Shown: positions 6,676 through 36,766 of the stretch, piece after piece
Position numbering within the stretch: the stretch's first letter is position 1
Layout: each line of letters opens with the position of its first letter
IMG/VR virus record: IMGVR_UViG_3300017647_000006
Span: 1-52,698 of that record
Source of the DNA: a virus
Lineage: Duplodnaviria > Caudoviricetes
Strand: one strand, 5' to 3'
Length of the DNA stretch: 52,698 nucleotides
The notes under the pieces: generated by a model
What the model was told of the DNA's origin: nothing
The model's database searches: none
Seen by the model: the letters and a program-made list of their open reading frames with translations, nothing else
Position numbers and translations under genes: made by a program

Positions 6676-6798
6676 GGCCGGGGGCAGGATTCGAACCTGC
6701 GACACGTCGCGCGCAACGTCCGTGATACAATCGGGGGCGACCCGATCGCAGCGCACGGCTCCCTGATGAGGGCGCGCTACCTCTGCGCTACCCCGGCC
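6676..6798 (-). ncRNA. tRNA-like RNA with non-canonical anticodon/variable region
   Basis: Minus strand: GGCCGGGG/CCCCGGCC acceptor helix, TA, D arm GCGC-AGAGGTA-GCGC, T arm GCAGG-TTCGAAT-CCTGC. Three hairpins lie between the D and T arms instead of a standard anticodon arm. No encoded CCA. Confidence 0.75.
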
Positions 6799-15021: not shown

Positions 15022-16784
15022 AACTACACCCCCTTTTCATTGACGGTTTCGCGGGCGGAGGCGGTGCTAGCACCGGTATCGGCCAGGCGCTCGGTCGTGA
15101 TGTCGACATCGCCATCAATCATAGCCCGACGGCGATCGCGATCCACAAGGCAAATCATCCCGAGACTGAGCATCATTGCACCGATATCCGCTCGCCCTTC
15201 CTGCCGCGCACCGCGACCCGCGGCCGCCCGGTCGGCGGCGCGTGGTTCTCGCCCGATTGCAAGGAATACAGCAAGGCGAAGGGCGGTCCGGTCAAGGATC
15301 GCTCCATACGGGCGCTTTGCTGGGAGGTCATCCACTGGCTCGAAGAGACGCTTCCGGCAGTCGGATATCTCGAGAACGTCGAAGAGTTCGAATATGCCGC
15401 GCCGCTGGACGGCAACGGCGTGCCGATGCCCGACAAGAAGGGCCGAGAGTTTAAGCGCTTCGTCCGCTCGATCCGCAGGCTCGGTTATCGCGTGCAATGG
15501 CGCGTGCTCAGGGCATGCGACTATGGCGCCCCGACCTCGCGCAAGCGCCTCTACATGATCTTCCGCCGCGACGGTAACGCGATCGTTTGGCCGAAGCCTA
15601 CCCATGCTTCACCGACCGATCGCCGCGTCATCGCGGGCAGGTTGCTGCCATATCGCACCGCGGCCGAGTGCATCGATTGGACGATCGATTGCCCCTCAAT
15701 CTTTGAGCGCGACCGCGAGCTTGCCGAAGCGACCAAGCGCCGGATTGCGCACGGCGTCATGCGCTATGTCGTGCAGGCGCAGCGCCCCTTCCTTGTGCCG
15801 GTGACCCATCAGGGTAGCGTTCGCGTGCACGACAGCGCCGAGCCCTTCCGGACGATCACTGGCGCCCATCGAGGCGAGATCGCGGTATCAGACGTCGAGC
15901 TGGCGTCGTTCGTCTCATACGGCCAGCAAGGCGGCCTCAATCGCCCGATCGTCAAGCCTATGCACGCTGTCACGGCGTCGAAAAAGGACACAAACGGCGT
16001 CGTAGGCGCCACGCTCGTGAAGATGGGCAATGGCGAGCGCGATGGACAGGCCCCGCGCGCCCTCGACCCTCGCAAGCCCTACGGGACGGTCACTGCCAAG
16101 GGGTCACAGGCCGCTGCGGTCACCGCGTTCCTGTCGAGCTTCTACGGCAGCGACAAGGCCGCGGCTGGGGGCGATCCGGAATTGCCGCTGCGCACCGCGC
16201 GCGCGGGCGGACAGCATCACGCCGTCGTCGCCGCCCATATCGAGCAGGCGAATACTGGCATGGTCGGTCACACGCCCCGTAAGCCTCTCTCGACGATCGT
16301 CGGCAAGGGATGCACCCAGCGCATCGTTGAAACGACAATGATCGAAGAGGGCGCGTTGCCGCCCGAAATGATGGCGCGCGCAGTTCGCACGGCCGCCTTT
16401 CTGGTCAAGTACTACGGCACGGACGGCGAGAATGAGACGGCGCAGATCCAGCCAGTCGACCGCCCGCTCGACGTCGTCACCGTCAAGGCGCGCTTTGCCG
16501 TCGTCACGGTCACGATCGACGCCACGACCTATGTCATCGTCGATATCGGCCTGCGCATGCTGAAACCCCGCGAGCTCGCCCGCGCGCAGGGCTTCCCGGA
16601 CGATTATGTTCTTGATCCCGTCGTCCGCAAATTCGTGCGCGGCAAGTGGGTCGAGAAGCGCCTCACAATTGCCGAGCAGATCAGTGCGATCGGCAACAGC
16701 GTTTGTCCACCCGTCGCCCGGGCGCTCGTGGCCGCGAACCAGCCGGACCTCTGCAACTGGCAGCCGGAGGCGCTGGCAGCATGA
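15018..16784 (+). CDS. DNA (cytosine-5) methyltransferase
   Basis: DGFAGGGG, SPDC, ENVEEF, DYGAPTSRKR, RELARAQGFP and IGNSVCPP motifs, with a long repetitive variable region. Confidence 0.92.
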   Translation: MKLHPLFIDGFAGGGGASTGIGQALGRDVDIAINHSPTAIAIHKANHPETEHHCTDIRSPFLPRTATRGRPVGGAWFSPDCKEYSKAKGGPVKDRSIRALCWEVIHWLEETLPAVGYLENVEEFEYAAPLDGNGVPMPDKKGREFKRFVRSIRRLGYRVQWRVLRACDYGAPTSRKRLYMIFRRDGNAIVWPKPTHASPTDRRVIAGRLLPYRTAAECIDWTIDCPSIFERDRELAEATKRRIAHGVMRYVVQAQRPFLVPVTHQGSVRVHDSAEPFRTITGAHRGEIAVSDVELASFVSYGQQGGLNRPIVKPMHAVTASKKDTNGVVGATLVKMGNGERDGQAPRALDPRKPYGTVTAKGSQAAAVTAFLSSFYGSDKAAAGGDPELPLRTARAGGQHHAVVAAHIEQANTGMVGHTPRKPLSTIVGKGCTQRIVETTMIEEGALPPEMMARAVRTAAFLVKYYGTDGENETAQIQPVDRPLDVVTVKARFAVVTVTIDATTYVIVDIGLRMLKPRELARAQGFPDDYVLDPVVRKFVRGKWVEKRLTIAEQISAIGNSVCPPVARALVAANQPDLCNWQPEALAA

Positions 16785-17569: not shown

Positions 17570-18141
17570 AACCGATCCCCGCCGACTTCGATCCCTCCAT
17601 GCCGATCCGCAAGGCAATGGAGCGCTATGGCATCGCCAAAGGCACCGTCCTGCGCTGGCGCAAGAAGCGCGGTGCCGTTCCGAAGCCCCAGCCCGACGCA
17701 TGGTCTGAACGCGAACTCTATCTGTTGCGGACGAACTTCAACTCCATGACTTATGCTCAGCTATGCGAGGTTCTGCCGGGGCGCACGCAACTCGCAATCA
17801 AGACCCGCGCCAATGCGATGGGCCTCAAGAAGGCGTCTGGAAACTTCGCTCGTGATCGTGGCCCGCGCTTTGACGGACAGGGCGCAAAAGGCATCGCCGA
17901 CATGGCCGCCCGGCATCTTCGCCGAGACGGCCCGGTCTATCGCTGTGACGCAGAAGGGAAGGCAAACCCCAAGGGCAAATTCTGGCGCTACGGTAACATC
18001 ACCCTCACCGAAGCGGATATGCTCGCCAAGGCTGAGCGCAAGGGCTGGCGGGCGGATAGCTGGAAGCAAATTCCCGACCGCACCGTGACTATCGGTGAGG
18101 CTGCCAATCGCGTTGTCGACAAGCTCCGGGGGACGATGTGA
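17560..18141 (+). CDS. Tandem HTH/Myb-like DNA-binding protein
   Basis: ERYGIAKGTVLRWRK and WSERELYLL...PGRTQLAIKTRA. Confidence 0.6.
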   Translation: MALKPIPADFDPSMPIRKAMERYGIAKGTVLRWRKKRGAVPKPQPDAWSERELYLLRTNFNSMTYAQLCEVLPGRTQLAIKTRANAMGLKKASGNFARDRGPRFDGQGAKGIADMAARHLRRDGPVYRCDAEGKANPKGKFWRYGNITLTEADMLAKAERKGWRADSWKQIPDRTVTIGEAANRVVDKLRGTM

Positions 18142-19583
18142 CCCCTGAGATCCATCTCCCCCGTAATGTCGAAGCCGAAGCCGCGCTCATCGGCGCGATG
18201 CTGATTGAGAACAAGATCATCGACAGCCTGCCTTCCGCGCTGTCGGTCGCCCATTTCTATGAACCGCTCCACGGCCGCCTCTTCGAGCGCATCGTCTCGC
18301 TGTTCAACGAAGGCAAGGGCGTCACCGCGGTCACGCTCAAGCCCTTCTTCGAGAATGACGAAGCGATGAAGGAGGTCGGCGGCATCGGCTATCTCGCGCA
18401 GCTCACCGGGAGCGGCGCAGGACTGATTGGGGCAAAGGACTTCGCCAAGCAGATCATCGACCTCGCCATACTGCGCGAAGTCATATCGGTAAGCCGCACG
18501 CTGATCGAAAGCGCAACCGACACGTCGGAATCGATCGACCCGGAAAGCCTTCTCGACGAGGCGCAAAGCGCGCTTGAGAAGATCAACGGGACCGAGGCAG
18601 ACAGCAAGATGGCATTCAGTGCCGATGCCTGCGTCGACGAGGTCATTGCCGAATGGGACCAGCCCTCCGCCGGCGTCGCCTGTGGCTGCATCCCCGAACT
18701 GGATAGAGCGCTTGGCAAGATCCGGCCCACAGAACTTGTCATCGTCGCAGGTCGTCCTGGCTCGGGAAAAACCGCTCTCGCCGTCTCCTATGCGAATGGC
18801 GTTGCCCGTAACGCGCTCGACCCCGAAGATGCCGGCGGCGGAGGCGTTCTCTTCATCAGTCACGAAATGTCGGCCCTTGAACTCGGCGGGCGACTGATCG
18901 CCGACACGGCTGCCTATTCCAATCCGATCGACTATTCGAAAATCGCGAATGGCTGGCTGAACGCCGAAGAGCGGGAGCGGATCACCAAGCTGCGCAACCA
19001 GATGCGCAAACTTCCGCTCGAGGTCATCCAGACACCGACGCTTACCATCCCCCGGCTCCGCGGTCTGGTACGGCGTTGGAAGCGGATCTTCGAGAAGCGC
19101 GGCGTCCCGATGCGCCTTTTGGTCGTCGACTATCTCCAGCTCATGTCGGGATCGAAGAAGGGGCGAGACGAAAACCGCACCGCCGAGATCAGCGAGATCA
19201 GCCGGGGCCTCAAGCAAATAGCGATGGACGAGCAATTGGGTGTCTTGGCCCTGTCCCAGCTAAGTCGGGCCGTCGAGCAGCGCGAAGACAAGCGCCCTCG
19301 CCTCTCCGACCTTCGCGAATCCGGTTCGATCGAGCAGGACGCGAACAAGGTCGTCGGCCTCTACAGCGCGCTCTATTATCATGAGCAGACGAAGCCATCG
19401 CCCGGCTCCCCGAATTTCGAAACCAAGCTGTTCGAATGGGAGGCCGATCGGGCCGCCATCAAAGACCAGATCGAGATGATCATTCTGAAACGCCGCAATG
19501 GCGCCTCAGGGATCACGGTCAACGGCTCATTTCTCCGAGAATACCAGGCCGTCCGCGGCCTCAACTCCAACCAGACGAGGTAA
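18138..19583 (+). CDS. dnaB: Replicative DNA helicase
   Basis: PRNVEAEAALIG, AGRPGSGKT Walker A, VVDYLQLM, LSQLSRAVEQREDKRPRLSDLRESGSIEQDA. Confidence 0.95.
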   Translation: MTPEIHLPRNVEAEAALIGAMLIENKIIDSLPSALSVAHFYEPLHGRLFERIVSLFNEGKGVTAVTLKPFFENDEAMKEVGGIGYLAQLTGSGAGLIGAKDFAKQIIDLAILREVISVSRTLIESATDTSESIDPESLLDEAQSALEKINGTEADSKMAFSADACVDEVIAEWDQPSAGVACGCIPELDRALGKIRPTELVIVAGRPGSGKTALAVSYANGVARNALDPEDAGGGGVLFISHEMSALELGGRLIADTAAYSNPIDYSKIANGWLNAEERERITKLRNQMRKLPLEVIQTPTLTIPRLRGLVRRWKRIFEKRGVPMRLLVVDYLQLMSGSKKGRDENRTAEISEISRGLKQIAMDEQLGVLALSQLSRAVEQREDKRPRLSDLRESGSIEQDANKVVGLYSALYYHEQTKPSPGSPNFETKLFEWEADRAAIKDQIEMIILKRRNGASGITVNGSFLREYQAVRGLNSNQTR

Positions 19584-20425: not shown

Positions 20426-20652
20426 CCCGCCCCAGCGGCTACCCCACCTCGGCAGCGGGGATCGGCAAATTCGCCGACCAGATGCGTGACCCGGATCCAG
20501 CCAATGGACGCTCAGCAGCCCGCGAGATGCGCGAGAGATCAGGCGGCAAGCTCGTGGTTTTCTACACCGATCACCTGTCATGGCCGATGGCGACGCGGGT
20601 CAACCAGCTTGCCGATGAGATTTACGGGCCGATGAAAGGAAAAGGACAATGA
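20422..20652 (+). CDS. Hypothetical protein
   Basis: Overlap-coupled ORF. Confidence 0.55.
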   Translation: MTRPSGYPTSAAGIGKFADQMRDPDPANGRSAAREMRERSGGKLVVFYTDHLSWPMATRVNQLADEIYGPMKGKGQ

Positions 20653-21440
20653 AAGCAATTCGCTGGAGCAATAACGACCGCTATTTCGGGCGCTTCACCT
20701 ATGCCCATGAACCGCGCCGCAAGCAGATTGTCGTGATGCTCGGATCGGGCGACGGCGACGATTATCCGGGCTGCCGCTTGCGCCTCGCGCTCGGCTCGCA
20801 CACGCTCATCATCGCCCTGCCCGCGATCATCAAGCCATTTCGGCGCTGGGTCGACACGTCGCATTATGAATGGTCGAAGGGCGAAGGTAGCGGATATTGG
20901 GACCAGCACGAGCGCGAGTACGGCTTTTCGGCATCCGAAGGCGCGGTCCACTGGCACTACGGCGAGCAGACGGACGAATGGCCCGGCTGCAAGTCGAAGG
21001 TCTGGTTCTTCCCGTGGCGCGAACATCGGATGGTCCGTTACAGCCTCTACGACCTTGAGGGCGAGCATTTCGCGGACCTTCCCATAGGCCGGTTCACCCG
21101 GAACAGGTCGGACGCCAAAGCCGCCCTCAAGGGTGCCTGCCCCGCCGCTCGATACGAGTTCGAGGACTTCGACGGCGAGCGCATCGTCGCGACCTGTCGC
21201 ATGGAGGAAATGGAATGGAAGCGCGGCAAAGGCGTCTTCCGGCTGCTCTACCTTGGCCGCAACAGGGTCGACCGATCGCTGGACCTTCGCTTCTCGTCTG
21301 AGGTCGGAAGGCGCAAGGGATCGTGGAAGGGCGGCACGGTCGGCCACGGCATCACGATGCTGCCCGGCGAGACGCACGAAGCTGCGTTCCGGCGCTATTG
21401 CAAGCAAGAGGGGCTGACGTTCGTCGGCGGCGTGAACTGA
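20649..21440 (+). CDS. Hypothetical aromatic-rich phage protein
   Basis: 263 aa, RBS and ATGA coupling. Confidence 0.7.
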   Translation: MKAIRWSNNDRYFGRFTYAHEPRRKQIVVMLGSGDGDDYPGCRLRLALGSHTLIIALPAIIKPFRRWVDTSHYEWSKGEGSGYWDQHEREYGFSASEGAVHWHYGEQTDEWPGCKSKVWFFPWREHRMVRYSLYDLEGEHFADLPIGRFTRNRSDAKAALKGACPAARYEFEDFDGERIVATCRMEEMEWKRGKGVFRLLYLGRNRVDRSLDLRFSSEVGRRKGSWKGGTVGHGITMLPGETHEAAFRRYCKQEGLTFVGGVN

Positions 21441-27693: not shown

Positions 27694-27851
27694 ACGAAAT
27701 CCTCGCCATGCTGATCGCCGCCCTCATTGGCGCGGCGCTGATCCTCTCGGGCATCTATCTGCTTGTCGGCATGGCATGGACCCTGATCGCGGGCGGTCTC
27801 GCCTGCTTCGCCTTCGCTGGCATCATCCGTAGGGGCGTCTATCGTGCTTGA
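27690..27851 (+). CDS. Small membrane protein preceding portal
   Basis: Not in the ORF track. 53 aa: MNEILAMLIAALIGAALILSGIYLLVGMAWTLIAGGLACFAFAGIIRRGVYRA. Confidence 0.65.
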   Translation: MNEILAMLIAALIGAALILSGIYLLVGMAWTLIAGGLACFAFAGIIRRGVYRA

Positions 27852-29223
27852 GCGAGCATTGACCGTCCTGTCTGCCGGCCTCGCACCGCGGACGAAAGCG
27901 AACCTGTCACCGCCGGATAACCGGGGCTGGTATCGCATTCTTGAGAGTTTTTCAGGGGCTTGGCAGCGCAACGTCGAAGTCGATCAGACGGCGGTGCTGG
28001 CGAACCACGCGATCTTTTCTTGCACGACGCTGGTTGCGCGCGACATCGCCAAGCTGCGCGTCAAACTGGTCGAGCGCGACAAGGATGGCATTTGGACGGA
28101 AACCGACCGCCCATCGCCTCTTGCGCCGGTCCTGCGGAAGCCCAATCATTTCCAGACCCGGAATCAATTCTGGGAATCGTGGATGCTGTCGAAGCTGTCG
28201 CGCGGCAACACCTATGTCCTCAAAAAGCGCGACAATCGCAACGTCGTGACCGCGCTCTATGTGCTCGACCCGAACCGCGTGAAGCCCATGATCGCGCCGG
28301 ACGGGACGGTTTATTACCAGCTTTCGTGCGACAACATCGCCGGGATCGAGGAAAGCCAAATCCTCGTGCCTGCCAGCGAAATCATCCATGATCGCTTCAA
28401 CACGCTCTTTCATCCGCTGGTCGGGCTGTCGCCGATTTTTGCGAGCGGACTGGCCGCGACGCAAGGCCTGAAAATTCAGGAAAGCAGCGCCAACTTCTTC
28501 GCCAATTCGTCGAAGCCAGGCGGCCTTCTTGTCGCGCCTGGCCGAATTGACCCTGACAACGCGGCCCGCCTCAAAGAGACTTGGGAAACCAAATACAGCG
28601 GCGCGAACGCGGGCAAAATCGCCGTCCTTGGCGATGGAATGCAATACACGGCGCTGACCGTGAACCCCGTAGACTCCCAGATGGTCGAGCAACTCAAATG
28701 GACCGCTGAGCAGATTTGCGGGACGTTCCATGTCCCCGCCTACAAAATCGGGATCGGCGCGATGCCGACCTTCAACAACATCTCCGCGTTGAACACCGAA
28801 TATTACGCGCAGGGCCTTCAGTCGCACCTAGAGGACATCGAAAGCCTGCTCGACGAAGGGTTGGGCATGAAGGCCAACATCGGGACCGAGTTCGATCTGG
28901 ATACCTTGCTGCGGATGGACCCGGCAACCCAGATGGACACGCTCGAAAAGTCCAAGGGCAAGCTGACAGTCAACGAACAGCGCGCCAAGCTGGACAAGAA
29001 GCCGGTCAAGGGCGGCGACACGGTCTATCTGCAAGAGCAGGATCACAGCCTCGAATGGCTCGCCAAGCGCGACGCACAGCCGATCGAAGCGCCTGCCCCA
29101 TCGCCTGCCCCTGCCAACGATGACGACGACCCTGAAGCGCAGGAGGCGAAGGCGATCATTGCTGGCGCCGAATTGCGGAAGGCGCTGTTTATTCGTCCTT
29201 CGCGGGCGGAGGTTCGGACTTGA
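27844..29223 (+). CDS. Portal protein (HK97 family)
   Basis: LRKPNHFQT, RGNTY, IIHDR...GLSPI, FHVP, LTVNEQR, PVKGGD. Confidence 0.93.
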   Translation: MLERALTVLSAGLAPRTKANLSPPDNRGWYRILESFSGAWQRNVEVDQTAVLANHAIFSCTTLVARDIAKLRVKLVERDKDGIWTETDRPSPLAPVLRKPNHFQTRNQFWESWMLSKLSRGNTYVLKKRDNRNVVTALYVLDPNRVKPMIAPDGTVYYQLSCDNIAGIEESQILVPASEIIHDRFNTLFHPLVGLSPIFASGLAATQGLKIQESSANFFANSSKPGGLLVAPGRIDPDNAARLKETWETKYSGANAGKIAVLGDGMQYTALTVNPVDSQMVEQLKWTAEQICGTFHVPAYKIGIGAMPTFNNISALNTEYYAQGLQSHLEDIESLLDEGLGMKANIGTEFDLDTLLRMDPATQMDTLEKSKGKLTVNEQRAKLDKKPVKGGDTVYLQEQDHSLEWLAKRDAQPIEAPAPSPAPANDDDDPEAQEAKAIIAGAELRKALFIRPSRAEVRT

Positions 29224-29353
29224 TACCCTGTTCGATGAGTCGTCGGATAGCATCCGAGCGCGACCAGATTTTGTGCTTGGCACGCCATTCGTCGAGAGCG
29301 TCGATTTCGCTCTGACTGATCACGAGTTGGATTCGCACGTCTTTCCGCTCCAT
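29189..29353 (-). CDS. Ribbon-helix-helix (CopG/Arc-like) regulator
   Basis: Not in the ORF track. 54 aa: MERKDVRIQLVISQSEIDALDEWRAKHKIWSRSDAIRRLIEQGIKSEPPPAKDE, with an alternating beta strand, a helix and an SRSDAIRRLI helix. Confidence 0.8.
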   Translation of the reverse strand: MERKDVRIQLVISQSEIDALDEWRAKHKIWSRSDAIRRLIEQGIKSEPPPAKDE

Positions 29354-29380
29354 TTTCGCGCCGTCTCACGATGGCGGTTG

Positions 29381-29480
29381 AGTTACAAGAGCAAGTTACA
29401 CAACTTTGCTTGACGCATCAACATGGTGAAGTTACACACCATGAGGCAGGCACAACCCGCCTGCGGTGCCGAGCAAAGGA
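29381..29480 (+). promoter_or_regulatory. Divergent promoter/operator region of the inserted cassette
   Basis: AGTTACA x3 (29381, 29394, 29430), TTGACG at 29410, inverted repeat CATGGTG (29422-29428)/CACCATG (29437-29443), RBS AAGGA at 29476. Confidence 0.6.
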
Positions 29481-29489
29481 TTTACGCAA

Positions 29490-30242
29490 ATGGCAAAGAA
29501 AGCGGTTGAACAGGAAATCATGGTCCCGGAACTTCGCCGGGGGATCGTGAAGTTGCGGATCATTGGTGAGACGCCGATGTTCCAAAACAGGATGGCGGCG
29601 AAGGCGAAGCAACAGCTTCTGGTCGGAGGTCGAAAGAAGACGGCGGCCGATCGGGCGCAGATCAAGCATCACCCGGTGGCCGAGTTCCGCGACAGCCTTG
29701 AGCGGATGCGCGACGGGCCGACCGCGCTGGGGTTGCGCGTCGTGGCCATGAAGGCGGCAATGTGCACGGCGGCGCTGGAGACGTCGGGCATCACGAAGAC
29801 GTCGGCGCAGCGCCTGCTGTTCATGCCCGGCGACCTGTCGGCGCTCTATGGGGTGCCGCAGCTTCGCATGGACGTGGTGCGGTCGGCGGACATCAACCGG
29901 ACGCCGGACGTGCGGACGCGGGCTTTCCTGCCCAAGTGGGGCGCCGAAATCGAAATCCATCACGTCCTGCCGCAGTTGCCGGTGGCGAGCGTTGTGACGC
30001 TGGCCTGCAATGCTGGTGTGCTCGTCGGTCTTGGTGACTTCCGGCAGGAGAAGGGCAAGGGCGCGTTCGGTTCGTTCCGGGTCATCACGCCGGACATGCA
30101 GGATGACGAATGGGACGATCTGGTCGCCAATCATGGGCGTGACGCTCAGTTGGCTGCGATCGACAGCCCGGAATATGCGGATGAGGACACCGCCGAATTG
30201 ATGGAATATTTCTTCGGCGAAGAGAAGCGGAGGGCCGCATAA
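29490..30242 (+). CDS. Stand-alone RAMP/Cas7-like RNA-binding protein
   Basis: 250 aa. N-terminal strand VKLRIIGETPM, MKAAM helix, thumb-like hairpin RMDVVR...DVRTRA, and C-terminal glycine-rich loop AGVLVGLGDFRQEKGKGAFGSFRV, in the order seen in RAMP/Cas7-group proteins. Recognised by eye. Confidence 0.7.
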   Translation: MAKKAVEQEIMVPELRRGIVKLRIIGETPMFQNRMAAKAKQQLLVGGRKKTAADRAQIKHHPVAEFRDSLERMRDGPTALGLRVVAMKAAMCTAALETSGITKTSAQRLLFMPGDLSALYGVPQLRMDVVRSADINRTPDVRTRAFLPKWGAEIEIHHVLPQLPVASVVTLACNAGVLVGLGDFRQEKGKGAFGSFRVITPDMQDDEWDDLVANHGRDAQLAAIDSPEYADEDTAELMEYFFGEEKRRAA

Positions 30243-30737
30243 ATGGCGCGTTTCACGAAGGCTCTGCGTCAGCAGATTATTCGCGAGTTCGCCGAGGCGC
30301 ACGGCGGGGTGTTTGACCCCGCCGCGTTCCTGTCGGCGGTCCATGATGAGGGTGAAGGCCACCCCGCCTATGAGTGGTTCGAGTGGAGCGACGACAAGGC
30401 CGCTCTGGAGTATAGGCTCGATCAGGCCCGCGACTTTGCGCGCGGCTTGGTCGTCCGGTTCGAGGTTCAAGAGGTTCATCGCGGCAAGATGCGGATCGCC
30501 GAGCGCAGCGCGCCGCTCGTGATGAGTCCGCTCGGCACGCGGAGGGATGGCGGCGGCTATGTCGTCACCGACCCGAACGACCCCGCGCATATGGAAGAAT
30601 TGCGCCGACAGGCCGCTGGCTCGCTGCGCTGGTATATCTCGCGCTATGAAGCGGTGCTGGCTGATGTTGGAGCGATGCAGCAATTCGAGCGCACGCTTGG
30701 GATGCTGGAAGTCGTGGAGCATCGCGAGGCTGCATAG
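30243..30737 (+). CDS. Partner protein of unknown function in the RAMP cassette
   Basis: 164 aa, starts directly after the RAMP-like stop. HPAYEWFEWSDDKAA.EYRLDQAR motif. Its stop codon overlaps the first array motif. Confidence 0.75.
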   Translation: MARFTKALRQQIIREFAEAHGGVFDPAAFLSAVHDEGEGHPAYEWFEWSDDKAALEYRLDQARDFARGLVVRFEVQEVHRGKMRIAERSAPLVMSPLGTRRDGGGYVVTDPNDPAHMEELRRQAAGSLRWYISRYEAVLADVGAMQQFERTLGMLEVVEHREAA

Positions 30738-31142
30738 GCAGGCAAGGCTCGGCGTGACGTGGCGAGTAATGGCGCGATGCGGCGAGGCGAGGTTTGGCAG
30801 GCGCGAAATGGCCCGGCGTGGTCGGGTAGCGATTGGCTCGGTCAGGACCGGCAGGCGAGTTACGGCATGGCGCGGCCCGGCGGGGAGCGGCTTGGCAGGC
30901 GTGAAGCGGCGAGCCAAGGCGAGGTTTGGTCGGGAGCGCGCGGTCAGGCAAGGCAGGCGCGGCGTGGCTTGGATCGACTGGGCATGGCACGGTTTGATAT
31001 GGCGCGGTTAGGCAGGCGTGGATGGGTTCGGCACGGCTAGGCCAGCGGTGGCGCGGACCGGATTGGCATGGCAGGTATGGTCAGGAACGGCACGGCTTGA
31101 TGAGGCACGTTTAGGCGGGGTCAGGCCTGGTATGGCCGGCAC
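30737..31142 (+). repeat. GGY-NN pentamer array in seven GGCA-delimited units (putative guide ncRNA)
   Basis: Manual parse: 73 pentamers, 72 starting with G and 52 with GGC/GGT, last two bases variable. GGCA tetramers at 30737, 30796, 30850, 30894, 30952, 31011 and 31070, and GGCC at 31134. Confidence 0.9.
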
Positions 31143-31321
31143 ACAAAGGGCGATCCTCCGGGGGCGGGCTTTTCATTGGATGACCTCATGGCCCGAACCG
31201 TTCGTCGAACGGCAATGAGCCATCGCTCACGGCGCGACGGCTTAGGTGCGCCGCAGATGTACCGGAAACCGAAATCAGCGGGCGGCCAATGAGCCGCCAC
31301 CCTTTATCATAAGGAGGCCGC

Positions 31322-32326
31322 ATGAACGCGACCGCTATCAGGGCCATGATGGGCGAACTAGCTCCCGTCATCCGCGAATATGTGGCCGCCGAGATTGCCG
31401 ACGTGCGCGCGGAGAATGCGGCGTTGAAGGCCGTGAACGCGGAACAGGCAAAGCGCCTCGCCGCATTGGAAGCCCGCGAGATGCCGAGCGTCGAAGGTCT
31501 CGCCAGCGTCGAAACCGTGCGCGGGATGATCGAAGCCGCCCTGCCCGATGTAGCATCGGAAATGCAGCCGCTCATCGCCCGCATGGATGCGATCGTCGAG
31601 ACCGGCGAGGAACGCGATGCCCGCTTGGTAGCCGTCGAGCAGCGTGAGATGCCGAGCCTTGAGGGCTACGTGACCGCCGAGGAAGCCAAGTCGATCGCCT
31701 CCGAGACTGTATCGGCCGCCATTGCCGAAATCCCGGCGCCACAGGACGGAAAGAGCATCGAGCCGGAAGAAGTACAGGCGATGGTCGACAAGGCCGTGGC
31801 GGCGCTCCCTGTGCCTGAGGCCCCCGAACCCATCGCGCCCGACATGGAAGCGATCGGCAAGATGATCGCGGACGGTATCGCCAAGGCCATCAGCGAATTG
31901 CCGCCCGCGGAGAAGGGCGAGCCCGGTGTCGGCTTGGCCGGCGCCATGATCGACCGCGACGGCAACCTGGTCGTGACGACCAGCGACGGGCGGACGCACA
32001 ATCTGGGCCTTGTCGTCGGCAAGGATGGCGCACCGGGTGAGACCTTCACGCTCGACGACTTCGACATTGAGCAGACCGATGAACGCACGCTGGAATTCAA
32101 GTTCCTGCGCGGCGACACGATGCACACGTTCGAGCTGGAATTTCCGGTGCCGATCTTCCGTGGCGCGTGGAAGGAAGGTCGAACCTACTCGAAGGGTGAC
32201 ATGGTTGTCTGGGGCGGCAGCTTGTGGGCGGCCACGAAGCAAACCGGCGCCAAGCCCGATTCGCCCGATAGTGGCTGGATGATCGCCGCTCGCAAGGGCC
32301 GCGATGGCAAGAGCGCGAAGGACTGA
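31322..32326 (+). CDS. Head-region structural protein with coiled coil and internal repeats
   Basis: AAGGAGG RBS, REMPSVEG/REMPSLEG repeat, GKDG motifs, C-terminal FRGAWKEG..Y.KGD.V.WGGSLW. Confidence 0.75.
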   Translation: MNATAIRAMMGELAPVIREYVAAEIADVRAENAALKAVNAEQAKRLAALEAREMPSVEGLASVETVRGMIEAALPDVASEMQPLIARMDAIVETGEERDARLVAVEQREMPSLEGYVTAEEAKSIASETVSAAIAEIPAPQDGKSIEPEEVQAMVDKAVAALPVPEAPEPIAPDMEAIGKMIADGIAKAISELPPAEKGEPGVGLAGAMIDRDGNLVVTTSDGRTHNLGLVVGKDGAPGETFTLDDFDIEQTDERTLEFKFLRGDTMHTFELEFPVPIFRGAWKEGRTYSKGDMVVWGGSLWAATKQTGAKPDSPDSGWMIAARKGRDGKSAKD

Positions 32327-32327
32327 C

Positions 32328-32879
32328 ATGCGCCGCCTCGAAATCGGCCCCGGCGCCGAACGTCTGCCCGGGTTCGAGACCTTCAACATCGCGCCCGGCC
32401 CGTTCACCGATCATGTCGGGGATGCGCGCCGTCTGCCTTTCAAGGATGGCACTTTCGCCGAGGTCTATTCGTCGCACTGCATCGAACATATCGAATGGTT
32501 TGACGTCGAGGCGACGATTGCCGAATGGGTGCGGGTAATCGCACCGGGTGGCTGGCTTGAGGTTCACACGGTTGATTCCACCTCGCTCATGCGTGCGATG
32601 CTCGAATGGGAGGAAACGGGCGAGACCAGCCGCTCGGCGGGGGCGTGGAAGCGCGAGCTGCACAAGGGCCACCCCTTCGTCGCCGCGGCGGGGCGCATCC
32701 TTTGCTACGCCAAGAAAGACGACCGGGGCGCGAACATGCACCGGGCGATCCTGACGCCGCGATATCTGCGCGAATGCTTCGAGCGGGCCGGGCTGGTCGA
32801 TCTGGAGACGGTCGCCGAGCCGCGCGGGTCAAAGAAGCATCGGAGCATCAACATGGGGCTGCGAGGGCGGAAGTGCTGA
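32328..32879 (+). CDS. Class I SAM-dependent methyltransferase domain protein
   Basis: RLEIGPG, GDARRLPF, VYSSHCIEH, RVIAPGG. Confidence 0.85.
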   Translation: MRRLEIGPGAERLPGFETFNIAPGPFTDHVGDARRLPFKDGTFAEVYSSHCIEHIEWFDVEATIAEWVRVIAPGGWLEVHTVDSTSLMRAMLEWEETGETSRSAGAWKRELHKGHPFVAAAGRILCYAKKDDRGANMHRAILTPRYLRECFERAGLVDLETVAEPRGSKKHRSINMGLRGRKC

Positions 32880-33715
32880 GCATCCGGACTCTGTCCGACA
32901 TGGCGCGGATCATCACCGCGAACCTGCATCGGATTGATCGAAGCGCCTTCGACTGCATCGTCGGCGTTCCCCGCTCGGGCATGATCCCGGCGAGCATAAT
33001 CGCGACGCAGCTTCAAATGCCGCTCGCTGACGTTGAGGGATATGGGCGGGGCATCGTGCATGGACGCTCAGGGCGCTCTGTCGAGGCTGGCAGGCGCATC
33101 CTGCTGGTCGATGATAGTTGCAATAAGGGAGGCGCGTTCAAGCGCGCTGTGAGCCTTCTGCCGAAGGGAACAAAGGCAACCCGGCTGGCGATCTTCGGCC
33201 CCTACCAGGTCGAGCCGGAATCGGTCTGCGATATGTGGTTCGAGGTCGTCCACGGCCCGCGGATATTCGCGTGGAACTGGACGAAGCACATTCGCTTGCC
33301 TCGCTGGGGCTTCGACATGGACGGCGTTCTCTGCCGCGACAATACGAAGGCCGAGAATGACGATGGCCCGCGCTACGCCGAGTTTCTGGCGACTGCCGAA
33401 CCGCTGTTCATTCCGCAGCGCGCGATCGGGCACATTATCACCGGGCGGGCGGAGAAATATCGGCCCCAGACCGAGGCGTGGCTCGCGCGGCACGGGATAC
33501 AGTTCGAGAGCCTGACCATGACCCCTTGGGCGACCAAGGGCGAGCGGATGGAGGCGATGCGGGCGACAGGTGGCCGCGGCGCGTGGAAGGCTGGGCACGC
33601 GGAAAGGCTGGGAGTCGAGATGTTCATCGAAAGCTGCCCGAAACAGGCGGGCATCATCGCGCGCGAGGCGGGTATTCCGGTTTTCTGCACAGCGACACAG
33701 GAGCTGGCGGCATGA
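32873..33715 (+). CDS. Phosphoribosyltransferase + HAD-like phosphatase fusion
   Basis: VGVPRSG and ILLVDDSCNKGG (PRT), then FDMDGVL, IITGR and FIES (HAD-like). Confidence 0.8.
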   Translation: MLSIRTLSDMARIITANLHRIDRSAFDCIVGVPRSGMIPASIIATQLQMPLADVEGYGRGIVHGRSGRSVEAGRRILLVDDSCNKGGAFKRAVSLLPKGTKATRLAIFGPYQVEPESVCDMWFEVVHGPRIFAWNWTKHIRLPRWGFDMDGVLCRDNTKAENDDGPRYAEFLATAEPLFIPQRAIGHIITGRAEKYRPQTEAWLARHGIQFESLTMTPWATKGERMEAMRATGGRGAWKAGHAERLGVEMFIESCPKQAGIIAREAGIPVFCTATQELAA

Positions 33716-34446
33716 TCCTCTCTCTCGTCATGCCATTCTATCTGAACAGCGGTATGCTCGCGCTGCAATATGCCGAGATGACCCGCTGGTCGGACAAGGC
33801 CAAGGCGCAGATCGAGGTGGTGATCGTCGACGATGGATCGCCCGAGCCCGCGGTTGACGTTGAACGACCAGAGGGCCTGCCGGACCTGCGGATTTATCGG
33901 GTTCTGGAGGATCGGCCTTGGTTCCAGAACGGCGCGCGGAATATCGCGGCGCATGAGGCGAAGGGAACATGGCTGATATCGACCGACATCGATCATGTGC
34001 TGACGGCGGAGAATGCGGACGCGCTGCTGAAGCGGATGCACCGGCTCGATCCCGAAACGGCCTATATGCTGCACCGCGTGGAAGCCGACACCGGGCTGCC
34101 GACATTGAACGCCAAGGGAAAACCGAAGCCGCACCCCAACAGCTTCGTGCTCACCCGCGACATGTATTGGCGGCTCGGGGGCTACGACGAGTGGTTCACA
34201 GGAATCTACGGGACCGATTCAATGTGGAGGGCCCGTCTCTATGCCGTCGCCAAGCAGGGTTTTCTCAAGCACGTCGCGCTGACCCGATATTGGCGCGGCC
34301 TTGTGCCAGACGCTTCGACCACGACGCTGCCGCGAAAGGAAGGGCGCGTTCCCGGCGAGAAAGAGGCCATCGCTTTGGCGAAGAAGGCGGCGGGCAAGGA
34401 GGATGAAATCCTGTCCTTGTCGGCTGAATACGAAAGGGCGCTGTGA
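33712..34446 (+). CDS. Glycosyltransferase family 2
   Basis: SLVMPFY, VIVDDGS, ARNIA, TDID (DxD), LGGYDEWF..YGTD. Confidence 0.88.
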   Translation: MILSLVMPFYLNSGMLALQYAEMTRWSDKAKAQIEVVIVDDGSPEPAVDVERPEGLPDLRIYRVLEDRPWFQNGARNIAAHEAKGTWLISTDIDHVLTAENADALLKRMHRLDPETAYMLHRVEADTGLPTLNAKGKPKPHPNSFVLTRDMYWRLGGYDEWFTGIYGTDSMWRARLYAVAKQGFLKHVALTRYWRGLVPDASTTTLPRKEGRVPGEKEAIALAKKAAGKEDEILSLSAEYERAL

Positions 34447-34991
34447 TGGAGCGTTGGCTGCCGGTCGTTGGCTATGAAGGCCATTACGAGGTGTCGGACC
34501 TTGGGCGAGTTCGGAGCGTCGCCCGCGTAATCACACGAGTGATGCCCGATGGATTGGTCCAGCACCAGCGCCGACCTGAAAAGATCATGGGGCAGTCAAC
34601 GCATGGTGACCGATGGTATGCCCGCGTCACGCTTTGCGTCGATTACCAAAGAAAGACGATTTCCGTTCACACTCTGGTATTGGAGGCCTTCGTCGGTCCG
34701 GCGCCGGATGGGATGGAGTGCAGGCATCTCGATGGAAACCAGAGGAATAATCGGCTCGGAAATCTCGCATGGGGCACGCCCGATCAGAACCAGGCAGACA
34801 AAGTTCGGCATGGGACAATTCTGAAGGGCGAGCGGGTCGTTCAATCGGTCCTGACTGCCAGTGATGTCGTTCAGATTCGGCGGCGCTACGCAAATGGGGA
34901 GCGTCAGTATCGGCTCGCCCGTGAACTCGGCGTCAGCAAGGCGACAATTTGCCGCGCGATACATGGCCGTTGCTGGGCTCACGTCGCATGA
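34446..34991 (+). CDS. NUMOD4-HNH homing endonuclease
   Basis: ERWLPVVGYEGHYEVSDLGRVRS (NUMOD4), VHTLVLEAF...CRHLDGN..NNRLGNLAWGT, C-terminal HTH. Confidence 0.9.
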   Translation: MERWLPVVGYEGHYEVSDLGRVRSVARVITRVMPDGLVQHQRRPEKIMGQSTHGDRWYARVTLCVDYQRKTISVHTLVLEAFVGPAPDGMECRHLDGNQRNNRLGNLAWGTPDQNQADKVRHGTILKGERVVQSVLTASDVVQIRRRYANGERQYRLARELGVSKATICRAIHGRCWAHVA

Positions 34992-35701
34992 TTTCGATCA
35001 TCTTCTGGCTGTGGCGCCAAGAGAAAACCCGCACTCTCTACACCGCAAATCATGTGAACGTCGCCGCAGCCATGGTGCGCCGCAACCTGTCGATGCCGCA
35101 CCGCATCGCCTGCGTGACCGATATGCCGGAAGGGATAGACCGGAGCGTGGAGATCATCACCCCGCCGGGGGATTTTCTCGATATCTCCAACCCGCGTTGG
35201 ACCAACGGCCGGCCCCAGTGTTACCGGCGCCTGTCGATGTTCCGCCGCGATGCCGGGGAGATTTTCGGCGAGCGGTTCGTTTCTATGGATTTAGATTGTG
35301 TCGTCGGCGGCCCGCTCGATCCGCTGTTTGATCGGCCCGAGGATCTTGTACTGTTCAAGGGCACGCTGCGGGGGCGTCCGTATAACGGATCGATGATGAT
35401 GATCCGGGCGGGCTGCCGACCCGATGTTTACGAGGATTTCAACCAGGAGGCCGCGCTGGAATCGGGGCGCCTCTTCTGCGGGTCCGATCAAGCGTGGCTG
35501 ATGCACAAGCTCGGGCCGAACGAACCTGTCTGGGACGATGCAGACGGGGTTTACTGGTTCGGGGGCGCTTATCGAACGCGCCGGGATAAGGTGCCGCCGC
35601 GGGTTCTCTTCTTCCCCGGCAATCTGAAGCCTTGGGATGTCAAGAAAATCGACCCGTTCGCGCGCGAGCATTATCATCTGGATTTGATGGAGGCGGCATG
35701 A
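34988..35701 (+). CDS. GT-A fold glycosyltransferase
   Basis: ACVTD, SMDLDCVV (DxD), YNGSMM, GSDQAW, FFPG..KPW. Confidence 0.8.
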   Translation: MISIIFWLWRQEKTRTLYTANHVNVAAAMVRRNLSMPHRIACVTDMPEGIDRSVEIITPPGDFLDISNPRWTNGRPQCYRRLSMFRRDAGEIFGERFVSMDLDCVVGGPLDPLFDRPEDLVLFKGTLRGRPYNGSMMMIRAGCRPDVYEDFNQEAALESGRLFCGSDQAWLMHKLGPNEPVWDDADGVYWFGGAYRTRRDKVPPRVLFFPGNLKPWDVKKIDPFAREHYHLDLMEAA

Positions 35702-35976: not shown

Positions 35977-36302
35977 AACCGTTCGTTCTGGACCAGAAGG
36001 TCACCTTGCAGCGCTTCACCGCGACGCAGGATGAATATGGCGAAGAGGTCCAGACGTGGGCCAATCTTGGCGACGAGCGGGCGAAGAAGTTTCAGGGCCG
36101 GGGTGACGAGCGACGGGCCGCCGCCCGCGAACAAGGGACAAAGGTCGCCACCTTCATGATGCACTCGAACAGCCGGACGCGCGGCCTGATGGTTCGGGAT
36201 CGCATCGTTCACGATGGAGCGAATTGGGACATAACCGATGTTTCGGATGGTTCGCCGCAACGCGGGTTCCTCGAAGTAACGGCAACGAGGGTCGTTGAGT
36301 AA
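35973..36302 (+). CDS. Head closure/head-tail adaptor
   Basis: LDQKVTLQR...DEYGE...W...DRIVHDG..WDI. Confidence 0.85.
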   Translation: MKPFVLDQKVTLQRFTATQDEYGEEVQTWANLGDERAKKFQGRGDERRAAAREQGTKVATFMMHSNSRTRGLMVRDRIVHDGANWDITDVSDGSPQRGFLEVTATRVVE

Positions 36303-36766
36303 TGGCACGGCAGACCTTCAGGACGGAAGGCTTCCGCGAACTCGAAAGGGCGCTCGCCGAGGACCTGCCGAGGGCCACCGCGCGCAACGTCCTTCGCCGC
36401 ACCGCCACGAAGTCGATGGAGCGCATCCGCACGAAGATGGAGCAACTGGCGCCGAAGGACGAAGGCGACCTCGCCGGAAGCATGAAAACCCAGAACGTCA
36501 CGGCCAAGCGCGCGCGGGGTTCGGTACGGTTCGAACGATCGACCGGGGTGCAGGTGATGACCGGTCCCGCTCCTGAAGGGAAATTGAACCGCTCGAACGC
36601 GGGCTGGCAGGAAGAAGGGACTGTGGAGATGTCTCCGAACCCCTACGCCCGCCCCGCGGCCGACAGTGAGGGTGAGGCGGTCGTTCGCGAAGTCCGCGAC
36701 ACGCTTGCAGACGAAGTGAAAAAGGCGAAGGCGCGCATCGCGCGGAAGCTGGCAAGGGGTCGGTAA
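36302..36766 (+). CDS. HK97 gp10-like tail component
   Basis: GFRELERAL, AP...GDL, EEGT..M.PNPYARPA. Confidence 0.8.
   Translation: MARQTFRTEGFRELERALAEDLPRATARNVLRRTATKSMERIRTKMEQLAPKDEGDLAGSMKTQNVTAKRARGSVRFERSTGVQVMTGPAPEGKLNRSNAGWQEEGTVEMSPNPYARPAADSEGEAVVREVRDTLADEVKKAKARIARKLARGR

What the first reader, a model, noticed from the sequence alone, without database searches (positions are those of the whole stretch)
29189..31142. Candidate phage RNA-guided system: solo Cas7/RAMP-like gene, partner gene and GGY-NN array, with its own regulator
Seen: a self-contained cassette interrupts the head operon after the portal. It holds a divergent RHH gene (29189-29353), a 250-aa ORF (29490-30242), a coupled 164-aa ORF (30243-30737), and a 406-nt periodic non-coding array starting at the last stop codon. 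Knowledge: the 250-aa protein has the motif order of RAMP/Cas7 proteins, including the C-terminal glycine-rich loop (GLGDFRQEKGKGAFGSF). Cas7 proteins polymerise along guide RNA with a fixed nucleotide step. No cas1/2/3/5/6/8/10 or repeat-spacer CRISPR array is present. Inference: the protein oligomerises on the array RNA, one subunit per 5-nt GGY-NN step, holding GGY and displaying NN for target recognition. That would be a minimal non-CRISPR guide system, plausibly aimed at competing phages or used for transcriptional silencing. From memory this resembles recently reported viral RAMP + GGY/NN repeat (VIPR-type) systems. I cannot verify that match here.
Basis: partly seen in the sequence, partly recalled or inferred. 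Interest (0 to 1): 0.97.

Follow-up and report, generated by a model that had tools for sequence, protein, structure and literature searches.

The report
Phage VIPR system with staggered guides
This phage carries a genuine example of the recently described VIPR RNA-guided DNA-silencing systems, a Cas7-like protein with a partner gene and seven five-letter-repeat guide RNAs, and one guide spells the active-site codons of integrase genes of other mobile elements.

Summary
It describes a known kind, not a new one.

**What is there**
- Window 29189-31142 holds an RHH gene, a 250-aa gene, a coupled 164-aa gene and a 400-nt GGY-NN tract.
- The tract has by far the strongest 5-nt G periodicity in the 52.7-kb record.

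**Why it is a VIPR system**
- The 250-aa protein folds confidently (pLDDT 96.3). Its structural matches are subunits of type III/VII CRISPR effector complexes.
- Its family profile hits only the solved "SUSP1 Vipr protein" (36pp, E 2e-8).
- Of 80 viral loci with a homologue, 65 carry a GGYNN run beside it on the same strand.
- This matches the VIPR systems of three 2026 bioRxiv preprints (10.64898/2026.04.26.720920, .720927, 2026.10.15.759431).

- The tract is seven guides of 8-12 pentamers joined by 4-nt GGCA steps, not one register. This is the "staggered array" of the first preprint's fig. S18 legend.
- Under the published one-base-skip rule, guide 7 matches tyrosine-integrase genes exactly (24/24) at the catalytic-tyrosine motif, in seven metagenome contigs.
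- It matches 22/24 in five of 201 sphingomonad genomes.
- The cassette is a 2.1-kb insertion absent from 80 of 80 portal relatives.

**Open points**
- The other six guides have no convincing target.
- The partner protein has no recognisable fold.

This scan has noted VIPR loci on other DNA many times.

The parts
29189..29353 (-). 54-aa ribbon-helix-helix gene, divergent from vipr. Probable local regulator. Its 3' end overlaps the last codons of the portal ORF (27844-29223).
   Evidence: Pfam RHH_1 E 2e-4; PHROG transcriptional-repressor family phrog_4738 E 5e-6. Found beside vipr only in L001 at tblastn E <= 1e-5 (83% identity). A weaker 34% match in L010 appears at E <= 1e-3.
29354..29489 (.). 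Divergent intergenic region with three copies of an (A/G)AGTTACA word: 29380-29387, 29393-29402 and 29429-29438. Two copies flank a TTGCTTGAC block. Inferred operator and promoter region.
   Evidence: Direct repeats. The TTGCTTGAC block and TTACACA / ATACACA words are kept in L001. The consensus scan called no sigma-70 promoter. The operator role is inference.
29490..30242 (+). vipr: 250-aa RAMP (Cas7-like) protein. G-loop at residues 180-196, thumb arginine R144, extra C-terminal helices 206-249.
   Evidence: AF2 pLDDT 96.3, pTM 0.89. Foldseek PDB: 46 matches at E <= 1e-3, and those listed are chains of type III/VII CRISPR effector complexes. Profile hit to 36pp 'SUSP1 Vipr protein', E 2.1e-8. 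1722 cluster representatives at E <= 1e-3.
30243..30737 (+). vap-like accessory gene (164 aa), start coupled to the vipr stop. Function unknown.
   Evidence: Found next to vipr in 72 of 97 related loci (tblastn E <= 1e-5). AF2 pLDDT 93.3. No Pfam, PDB-sequence, PDB-fold or BFVD-fold match.
30737..31137 (+). Staggered vrRNA array: seven GGYNN units joined by 4-nt GGCA steps, each a one-base register shift.
   Evidence: The same GGCA-delimited layout is seen in L002/L003, L005 and L011. Spacings between GGCAGGY words are 4 mod 5 in 101 of 114 cases across the loci.
30741..30795 (+). Guide unit 1 (11 pentamers)
   Evidence: Its one-base-skip pattern has no exact match in viral contigs.
30800..30849 (+). 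Guide unit 2 (10 pentamers)
   Evidence: No exact match in viral contigs.
30854..30893 (+). Guide unit 3 (8 pentamers)
   Evidence: Not searched outside the session's loci, because 16 read bases are too few for a collection scan.
30898..30951 (+). Guide unit 4 (8-9 pentamers, then a degenerate stretch GTCA-GGCAA before the next GGCA)
   Evidence: One exact match in viral contigs (L117) lies at chance level and out of codon phase.
30956..31010 (+). Guide unit 5 (11 pentamers)
   Evidence: No exact match in viral contigs.
31015..31069 (+). Guide unit 6 (11 pentamers)
   Evidence: No exact match in viral contigs. 0 of 201 sphingomonad-family genomes match at <= 2 mismatches.
31074..31133 (+). Guide unit 7 (12 pentamers). 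Its NN letters spell codon positions 1-2 of I-Q-T-T-F-D-T-Y-G-H-L-M, the catalytic-tyrosine motif of tyrosine integrases.
   Evidence: Seven exact 24/24 matches in metagenome contigs, all in integrase reading frames. Pfam PF00589 on 3 of 3 tested. Five of 201 sphingomonad-family genomes match 22/24 and one matches 21/24, against a control of 1 of 201.

Best explanation
The cassette is a VIPR (Viral Interference Programmable Repeat) system carried as an insertion in the head-gene region of a phage. The host is probably a sphingomonad.

**How it most likely works**
- The operon vipr-vap-array is transcribed rightwards from the divergent region. The neighbouring RHH protein probably controls that region (inferred).
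- The array RNA is cut, or ends, at the GGCA/GGC junctions. This gives seven guides of about 44-64 nt (inferred from the staggered layout and the preprint's fig. S18 legend).
- One Vipr protomer binds each pentamer. The G-loop and thumb hold G-G-Y and expose the two N bases (shown for SUSP1 Vipr by cryo-EM; inferred here from conserved residues).
- The filament binds double-stranded DNA in which each NN pairs and one base per unit is skipped. In coding targets the skipped base is the codon wobble base. Binding silences transcription (shown for SUSP1; inferred here).
- At least guide 7 is aimed at the catalytic-tyrosine box of tyrosine-integrase genes of other integrated elements. Silencing them would keep a resident prophage-like island or satellite from excising during infection.
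- The role of the 164-aa partner is unknown.
For: **Protein**
- The AF2 model has pLDDT 96.3.
- Foldseek against the PDB gives 46 matches at E <= 1e-3. The listed ones are chains of Csm, Cmr, type III-D, type VII and Cas7-11 complexes. The best has E 6.9e-6 and probability 1.00.
- The 97-sequence family profile has one significant PDB match: 36pp_D 'SUSP1 Vipr protein', E 2.1e-8. The next best has E 0.83.
- In that alignment, SUSP1 R138, D177, W178 and R179 align with window R144, D183, F184 and R185. The cryo-EM preprint says these residues hold G1, G2 and Y3 (section read).
- In the family, R185 is invariant, and R144 and D183 are at least 90% conserved.

**Array**
- It has the strongest 5-nt periodicity in the record.
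- Positions 1-3 are conserved and positions 4-5 are near maximal entropy.

**Association with vipr**
- 65 of 80 viral loci with a homologue have a run of at least four GGYNN within 1 kb on the gene's strand.
- There are 347 guide-like runs of at least 8 pentamers on the + strand against 8 on the - strand, in 98 sources.
- vap lies beside vipr in 72 of 97 loci.
- A 93%-identical Vipr (L002) has an array with quite different NN but the same GGC/GGCA scaffold.

**Target of guide 7**
- There are seven exact matches in metagenome contigs, all in frame with integrase genes.
- The skipped bases differ among the seven loci at 10 of 11 positions.
- PF00589 was found in 3 of 3 tested.
- Matches at <= 2 mismatches occur in 5 of 201 genomes of the family of a Sphingomonas MAG. 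None occurs in 0 of 401 genomes of an Alphaproteobacteria class sample.
- The built-in controls gave 1 of 201 at <= 3 mismatches and 0 of 401.

**No self-target**
- The best one-base-skip match inside the window is 63-78% of read bases for every guide.

**Phage setting**
- Terminase, protease, capsid and portal lie upstream.
- None of 80 portal relatives has the cassette.
Against: - Nothing here shows that the array is transcribed, processed or bound.
- The one RNA library holding this sequence gives two 151-nt contigs, at 29399-29549 and 30436-30586. It cannot exclude DNA carry-over.
- Foldseek TM-scores are low (0.31-0.46).
- The profile match to SUSP1 Vipr spans only 53 profile positions.
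- 22 of 72 pentamers are not exact GGY.
- No promoter or intrinsic terminator was called. The 3' flank folds no better than shuffles (z 0.09).
- Only one of seven guides has a convincing target.
- The seven exact matches lie in an integrase family whose few named members are Actinomycetota MAGs. The terminase instead points to sphingomonads: 88% identity to a Sphingopyxis prophage.
- The best sphingomonad matches are 22/24, in integrases only 32% identical to the exact-match family.
- The seven exact hits are homologous genes, so they count as one independent event.
Confidence: 0.9

Rival explanations
1. It is a VIPR member, but the guides regulate host genes or the phage's own genes, or act as decoys, rather than silencing rival mobile elements. 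On this reading the integrase match of guide 7 is a by-product of a very conserved motif.
For: Six of seven guides have no target in what was searched. The exact matches of guide 7 sit in a family named only from Actinomycetota MAGs, which is not the inferred host clade. The October preprint reports decoy-directed vrRNAs in satellites (abstract).
Against: No guide matches the phage's own 52.7 kb at 80% or more under the one-base-skip rule. Guide 7 reads 12 consecutive codons in phase, with variation at the skipped bases. It also finds integrases of integrated phage-like elements in the inferred host family more often than its control does.
Confidence: 0.07
2. The tract is protein-coding or a mere G-rich low-complexity spacer, and the Cas7-like gene is unrelated to it.
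For: ORFs of 93-154 aa can be drawn across the tract. In Mycobacterium phage Donkeykong the equivalent tract is annotated as a CDS, gp48.
Against: A period of 5 with one-base register shifts cannot keep a reading frame. Only the scaffold letters are conserved, and close relatives differ at the N positions. The tract follows vipr or vap on the same strand in most loci.
Confidence: 0.02
3. It is a decayed remnant of a class 1 CRISPR-Cas locus that has lost its array and the other cas genes.
For: The nearest solved folds other than Vipr are Csm3/Cmr4-type subunits.
Against: There is no Cas1, no CRISPR repeat family and no CRISPR-like repeat in the record. The family has 1722 cluster representatives with a conserved partner and pentamer arrays. 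The only sequence-level PDB relative is a Vipr.
Confidence: 0.01

Closest known systems
VIPR systems with staggered vrRNA arrays (bioRxiv 10.64898/2026.04.26.720920, Results and fig. S18 legend)
   Same: A lone RAMP gene, an accessory gene and GGY/NN pentamer guides, phage-borne and without a CRISPR array. Neighbouring guides overlap by one base: each unit here ends GGCA-G, and that G starts the next unit.
   Different: The figure and tables could not be seen, so it is unknown whether this clade or type is the one shown. Differences here are a divergent RHH gene, a 250-aa Vipr with extra C-terminal helices (SUSP1 Vipr chain: 202 residues), and no conserved structured tail after each guide.
Type II VIPR of Escherichia phage SUSP1 (same preprint; cryo-EM in 10.64898/2026.04.26.720927; PDB 36pp)
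   Same: The G-loop and thumb residues that hold GGY are conserved. Guides have 8-12 units, against the published 9-16. A guide reads codon positions 1-2 of a recombinase gene, as SUSP1 vrRNA4 does on a satellite excision recombinase (10.64898/2026.10.15.759431, section read).
   Different: Sequence similarity is detectable only by profile and only around the G-loop. SUSP1 guides are separate RNAs of about 100 nt, each with a pseudoknot tail. The guides here abut directly. The partner gene shows no detectable likeness to anything named, so its equivalence to vap1 is untested.
Class 1 CRISPR backbone subunits (Csm3 / Cmr4 / Cas7)
   Same: RRM core with thumb and glycine-rich loop, and best structural matches. 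Oligomerisation along a guide with periodic flipped bases is established knowledge for Cas7 and is described for Vipr.
   Different: There is no repeat-spacer array, no Cas6-type handle, and no large or small subunit or adaptation genes. The step is 5 nt with three bases hidden, not 6 nt with one flipped.

Membership tests
VIPR system | Vipr protein: RAMP fold with RRM core, thumb and glycine-rich loop | tested here: met
   AF2 pLDDT 96.3. 46 Foldseek PDB matches at E <= 1e-3, and the listed ones come from type III/VII CRISPR effector entries. That the matched chains are the Cas7-type subunits is my inference from their 190-235-residue lengths. The G-loop is at residues 180-196.
VIPR system | Sequence relationship to an established Vipr | tested here: met
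   The profile of 97 homologues hits 36pp_D 'SUSP1 Vipr protein' at E 2.1e-8. It is the only match below E 0.8.
VIPR system | Residues that bind G1, G2 and Y3 (SUSP1 R138, D177, W178, R179) | tested here: met
   They align to R144, D183, F184 and R185, which are invariant or at least 90% conserved in the family. Roles come from the cryo-EM preprint. H17 aligns only in a non-significant stretch, to N33. The preprint's T175 reads V in my count of the printed alignment.
VIPR system | Adjacent vrRNA of tandem YNNGG / GGYNN units (published: 9-16 units; caller threshold at least 4) | tested here: met
   Seven units of 8-12 pentamers. 50 of 72 pentamers are exact GGY, and the N positions are near maximal entropy. 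Homologous loci carry them too.
VIPR system | Accessory vap gene beside vipr | tested here: inconclusive
   A conserved partner is present in 72 of 97 loci. It matches no named family or fold. Which of vap1-6 it is, if any, cannot be told without the preprint's data files.
VIPR system | Targets obey the one-base-skip rule, with the skipped base at the codon wobble position | tested here: met
   This holds for guide 7 only: 24/24 matches in integrase genes, in codon phase, in seven contigs. The other skip rules were not scanned in the large collection. The remaining six guides have no assigned target.
VIPR system | vrRNA is expressed and co-purifies with Vipr, and the complex binds DNA and silences | not testable with these tools
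   Only two RNA-library contigs over the vipr 5' end and vap were found.
VIPR system | Assignment to one of types I-VII | not testable with these tools
Class 1 CRISPR-Cas | Repeat-spacer array and adaptation or other effector genes | tested here: not met
   No Cas1, no Rfam CRISPR repeat and no CRISPR-like tandem repeat. PADLOC gave nothing for the three cassette proteins beyond a weak Cas6 row at E 0.068.

The most novel reading that the evidence does not exclude
Guide 7 may be a broad-spectrum anti-integrase guide.
- It reads only the first two bases of the 12 codons around the catalytic tyrosine. One 60-nt RNA can therefore recognise integrase genes that are only 32% identical overall: 24/24 in one family and 22/24 in tRNA-Gln-linked phage-like islands of sphingomonads.
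- This would let a probably non-integrating phage lock many unrelated resident elements in the chromosome.
- The whole system would travel as a self-regulated 2.1-kb cassette (RHH gene, vipr, vap, array) that inserts between a portal gene and its conserved partner gene.
Probability: 0.3. Interest if true: 0.5.

Novelty: new member of a known kind. Interest (0 to 1): 0.3.

Why it matters
- It adds a clean, well-delimited VIPR example from an uncultured phage, probably of a sphingomonad, with a staggered seven-guide array.
- It gives the staggered array an exact boundary rule: GGCA, then GGC, with unit length 5n+4.
- It provides a second, independent case of a VIPR guide aimed at a recombinase gene, here at the catalytic-tyrosine codons.
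- The accessory protein folds confidently but resembles nothing solved, so it is a candidate for structural and functional work.
- It does not open a new class. The system, its code and recombinase targeting are in 2026 preprints, and this scan has met such loci many times.

Tried and rejected
**Repeats, RNA families and signals**
- Tandem Repeats Finder on the tract and on the whole window found nothing at the tract.
- Rfam found no match in 29000-31600 at E <= 1, so no hammerhead ribozyme either. The only match in the whole window is a tRNA-like hit elsewhere.
- The promoter and terminator scan made no calls.
- The fold of 31120-31200 is no better than shuffles. Hairpin-plus-T-run ends of relatives' arrays were read by eye and were not folded.

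**Partner protein**
- No Pfam, PADLOC, PDB-sequence, PDB-fold or BFVD-fold match.
- The protein atlas returned only unnamed viral clusters.
- Complex prediction on Vipr + partner gave no verdict (score 0.00, controls not run). This is neither for nor against binding.

**Guide targets**
- Exact one-base-skip patterns of guides 1, 5, 6, 2 and 7 have 0 matches in viral contigs.
- Guide 4 (18 read bases) has one match, L117. By my rough estimate of collection size this is about what chance gives. It falls in a 52% GC virus, and the read bases sit at codon positions 2-3 of the long ORF. Rejected.
- Guide 6 matches 0 of 201 sphingomonad-family genomes at <= 2 mismatches.
- Guide 7 matches 0 of 4 genomes that carry close Vipr homologues at <= 3 mismatches.
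- Guides 1-6 do not converge on the regions that hold guide-7 targets. The best score is 16/22.
- Guide 3 was not scanned.

**All-against-all guide search**
- 322 guides from the loci were scored against 1.49 Mb of loci and window. The one-base-skip rule did no better than the 0-, 2- and 3-base rules.
- Counts at >= 0.85 were 32 for the one-base rule against 10, 24 and 29 for the others. The 3-base hits were array-to-array homology.
- The best one-base-skip hit was an L087 guide on the vipr 3' end of L083 (17/18). By my estimate this is at chance level.
- The same 322 guides against the integrase loci gave only one hit at >= 0.9 (15/16), also at chance level.

**Reads**
- One soil RNA library holds a small share of the words. 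The array and most of vipr have no cover there, and this shows nothing either way.

**Counting fault**
- The run totals printed are inflated by overlapping starts. Only its per-locus presence counts are used.

**Not done**
- Cas families other than Cas1 were not searched.
- No tree placing the protein among VIPR types was built.
- The preprints' supplementary tables and data were unread because they are closed. They may already list this clade, its type or its targets.

Full report
**What is in the sequence**

- A 54-aa ribbon-helix-helix gene lies on the minus strand at 29189-29353 (Pfam RHH_1, E 2e-4).
- A 250-aa ORF lies at 29490-30242.
- A 164-aa ORF lies at 30243-30737. Its ATG directly follows the upstream TAA.
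- A G-rich tract starts inside the TAG stop of the 164-aa gene and ends near 31137.

The tract has a strong 5-nt period.
- It holds 61 GGY in 405 nt, spaced 5, 10 or 15 nt apart in 50 of 60 intervals.
- G autocorrelation at lag 5 is 0.535.
- In a two-strand scan of the whole record, the twelve best 400-nt windows all overlap the tract. The best window elsewhere reaches 0.148.
- Split into 72 pentamers, position 1 is G in 71, position 2 is G in 59 and position 3 is a pyrimidine in 58.
- Positions 4 and 5 have 1.94 and 1.89 bits of entropy.
- Tandem Repeats Finder misses the tract.

**The tract is seven units, not one**

- A 4-nt GGCA step recurs at 30737, 30796, 30850, 30894, 30952, 31011 and 31070. 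Each step shifts the register by one base.
- The units between steps hold 11, 10, 8, about 9, 11, 11 and 12 pentamers.
- Read in phase, every unit ends GGCAG, and that last G is the first G of the next unit.
- The same layout is seen in related loci L002/L003, L005 and L011.
- Across the loci, 101 of 114 spacings between GGCAGGY words are 4 mod 5, mostly 39-64 nt. Only 14 of 98 sources have three or more such spacings.
- This is what the first VIPR preprint's fig. S18 legend calls a staggered array, with vrRNAs at 1-nt overlapping positions.

**The 250-aa protein**

- Pfam finds nothing. PHROGs gives an unnamed family, phrog_4652.
- The family is large. There are 1282 homologues at E <= 1e-3 in one search and 1722 representatives of 50% clusters in another.
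- With a 97-sequence alignment, AlphaFold2 gives pLDDT 96.3 and pTM 0.89.
- Foldseek against the PDB gives 46 matches at E <= 1e-3. The listed ones are all chains of Csm, Cmr, type III-D, type VII or Cas7-11 complexes. Probability is about 1.0, but TM-scores are only 0.31-0.46.
- The family profile has a single significant sequence match in the PDB, chain 36pp_D 'SUSP1 Vipr protein' (E 2.1e-8). The match covers the thumb base and the glycine-rich loop.
- The cryo-EM preprint (section read) says SUSP1 R138, D177, W178 and R179 hold the GGY bases. These align with R144, D183, F184 and R185 here.
- R185 is invariant in the family, and R144 and D183 are at least 90% conserved.

**Association with arrays and a partner gene**

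- Eighty IMG/VR loci encode homologues at 38-93% identity.
- The strongest lag-5 G signal of each locus was tabulated against the gene's position.
- 65 of the 80 loci have a strict run of at least four GGYNN within 1 kb on the gene's strand. Only one such run lies on the opposite strand.
- With 17 further loci from named genomes, mostly Alphaproteobacteria, a caller for runs of at least 8 pentamers finds 347 on the plus strand and 8 on the minus strand. Runs occur in 83 of 98 sources.
- The 164-aa gene is recognisable beside vipr in 72 of 97 loci. The array can follow it, lie between the two genes or lie upstream.
- A Vipr that is 93% identical (L002) has an array with the same scaffold but unrelated N letters. 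That is the behaviour of a guide.

**What is known**

Three bioRxiv preprints of 2026 describe this class.
- 10.64898/2026.04.26.720920 covers the discovery, the GGY/NN vrRNAs, the one-base-skip code, seven types and staggered arrays. I read the Results, Discussion, four Methods sections and the supplementary legends.
- 10.64898/2026.04.26.720927 gives the cryo-EM structures. I read two Results sections.
- 10.64898/2026.10.15.759431 shows SUSP1 VIPR silencing a satellite's excision recombinase. I read two Results sections and one Methods section.
- The cassette meets every defining feature that can be tested by computation.

**What the guides point at**

- Under the published rule (each NN read, one base skipped), no guide matches the phage's own 52.7 kb at 80% or more. 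The best scores are 63-78%.
- Guide 7 has seven exact 24/24 matches in the metagenome collection and none in IMG/VR.
- All seven lie in reading frames encoding ...MGHS(K/R)IQTTFDTYGHLMPG... The read bases fall on codon positions 1-2, and the skipped bases vary at 10 of 11 positions.
- Two of the seven frames are short: 55 and 63 codons are open.
- Three of three tested products match Pfam Phage_integrase, with the hit at the C-terminal end of the domain where the catalytic tyrosine lies.
- With 24 read bases, one chance match is expected per 2.8e14 positions. The seven hits are homologous genes, so they count as one event.
- Of the 120 closest homologues of one such integrase, 21 carry a fully compatible peptide, 28 differ at one residue, 70 at two and 1 at three.

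**Host and likely natural targets**

- The terminase is 88% identical to one in a Sphingopyxis genome. The next named relatives are Sphingobium and Novosphingobium.
- A sample of 201 genomes of the family of a Sphingomonas MAG gives six genomes with a guide-7 match at <= 3 mismatches. Five of them match 22/24. The reversed-pattern control finds one.
- A 401-genome sample of the class gives none at <= 2 mismatches.
- The sphingomonad hits encode IQITVDTYGHLI in integrases. These abut a tRNA-Gln gene in 4 of 6 loci and lie in regions of 54-59% GC.
- In L114 the integrase is followed by an excisionase-like gene, a DnaC-like loader and a replication initiator. This is an integrated phage-like element.
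- The window itself has no PF00589 integrase in six frames. The record is linear and is estimated 80% complete.
- One tension remains. The few named members of the exact-match integrase family are Actinomycetota MAGs. That family is only 32% identical to the sphingomonad integrases.
- The other six guides have no convincing target.

**Setting**

- Upstream lie terminase, protease, major capsid and portal genes.
- The gene after the cassette (31322-32326) matches the C-terminal part of long portal profiles.
- In 80 viral loci with a related portal (57-75% identity), none has vipr, the partner or the RHH gene.
- 73 of the 80 have the downstream gene. Its match starts within 755 nt of the end of the portal match in 72 of those 73. 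Here the distance is 2099 nt.
- The portal ORF's last codons run into the RHH gene's 3' end.
- Similarity with L001, the one locus sharing this position and the RHH gene, begins at the RHH stop codon.
- The cassette is therefore an insertion of about 2.1 kb.
- The RHH gene and three AGTTACA words in the divergent region suggest local control. This is inference.

**Verdict**

This is a real VIPR system and a new member of a known kind. Earlier notes of this scan report many such loci on other DNA (504 notes hold the search words). They pointed me to the two further preprints and agree on the staggered layout.

Noticed in passing
window 20649-21440 (+): A 263-aa ORF matches Pfam PF25187 'CBASS inhibitor Acb3' over its whole length (E 1.3e-80). 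It is a likely anti-defence gene of this phage.
   Followed up: no
window 12881-13474, 14973-16784 and 18138-19583 (+): An MT-A70 adenine methylase, a C-5 cytosine methylase and a DnaB-type helicase.
   Followed up: no
window 31322-32326 (+): A 334-aa ORF matches the C-terminal part of long 'portal protein' profiles (phrog_2271 positions 771-857 of 859; phrog_1289). The portal ORF itself matches positions 30-410. This ORF directly follows the portal in 73 of 80 related loci. In some phages the two appear to be one gene.
   Followed up: partly
window 32304-35701 (+): Methyltransferase- and glycosyltransferase-like ORFs with weak PHROG matches lie between the head genes and the neck gene at 36302-36766. 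This is a second block of non-structural genes inside the morphogenesis region.
   Followed up: no
window 6676-6797 (-): An Rfam tRNA match (42.8 bits, gathering score 29) is spread over 122 nt, while ARAGORN calls no tRNA in the window. It may be an interrupted or degenerate tRNA.
   Followed up: no
L198 (Mycobacterium phage Donkeykong, NC_051648) 1008-1353: The CDS annotated gp48 'hypothetical protein' is a GGCNN staggered array whose runs end GGCAG. It lies directly upstream of gp49, a 31%-identical homologue of the window's Vipr. The same protein hit occurs in 25 Mycobacterium, 5 Gordonia and 1 Pseudomonas phage records.
   Followed up: partly
L114 9822-17231 (unnamed sphingomonad-family genome): A tRNA-Gln-linked element carries an integrase, an excisionase-like gene, a DnaC-like loader, a replication initiator and a serine invertase. 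Its integrase carries the 22/24 match to guide 7.
   Followed up: partly
L087 3777-3826 against L083 3723: A guide-like run of a Microvirga prophage matches the 3' end of the vipr gene of a Hoeflea MAG at 17 of 18 read bases under the one-base-skip rule. Given the number of guides tried, this is about chance level by my estimate. The October preprint reports vipr-directed guides.
   Followed up: no
window 29399-29549 and 30436-30586: Two 151-nt contigs of a soil metatranscriptome library are identical to the vipr 5' region and to part of the partner gene. DNA carry-over cannot be excluded.
   Followed up: no
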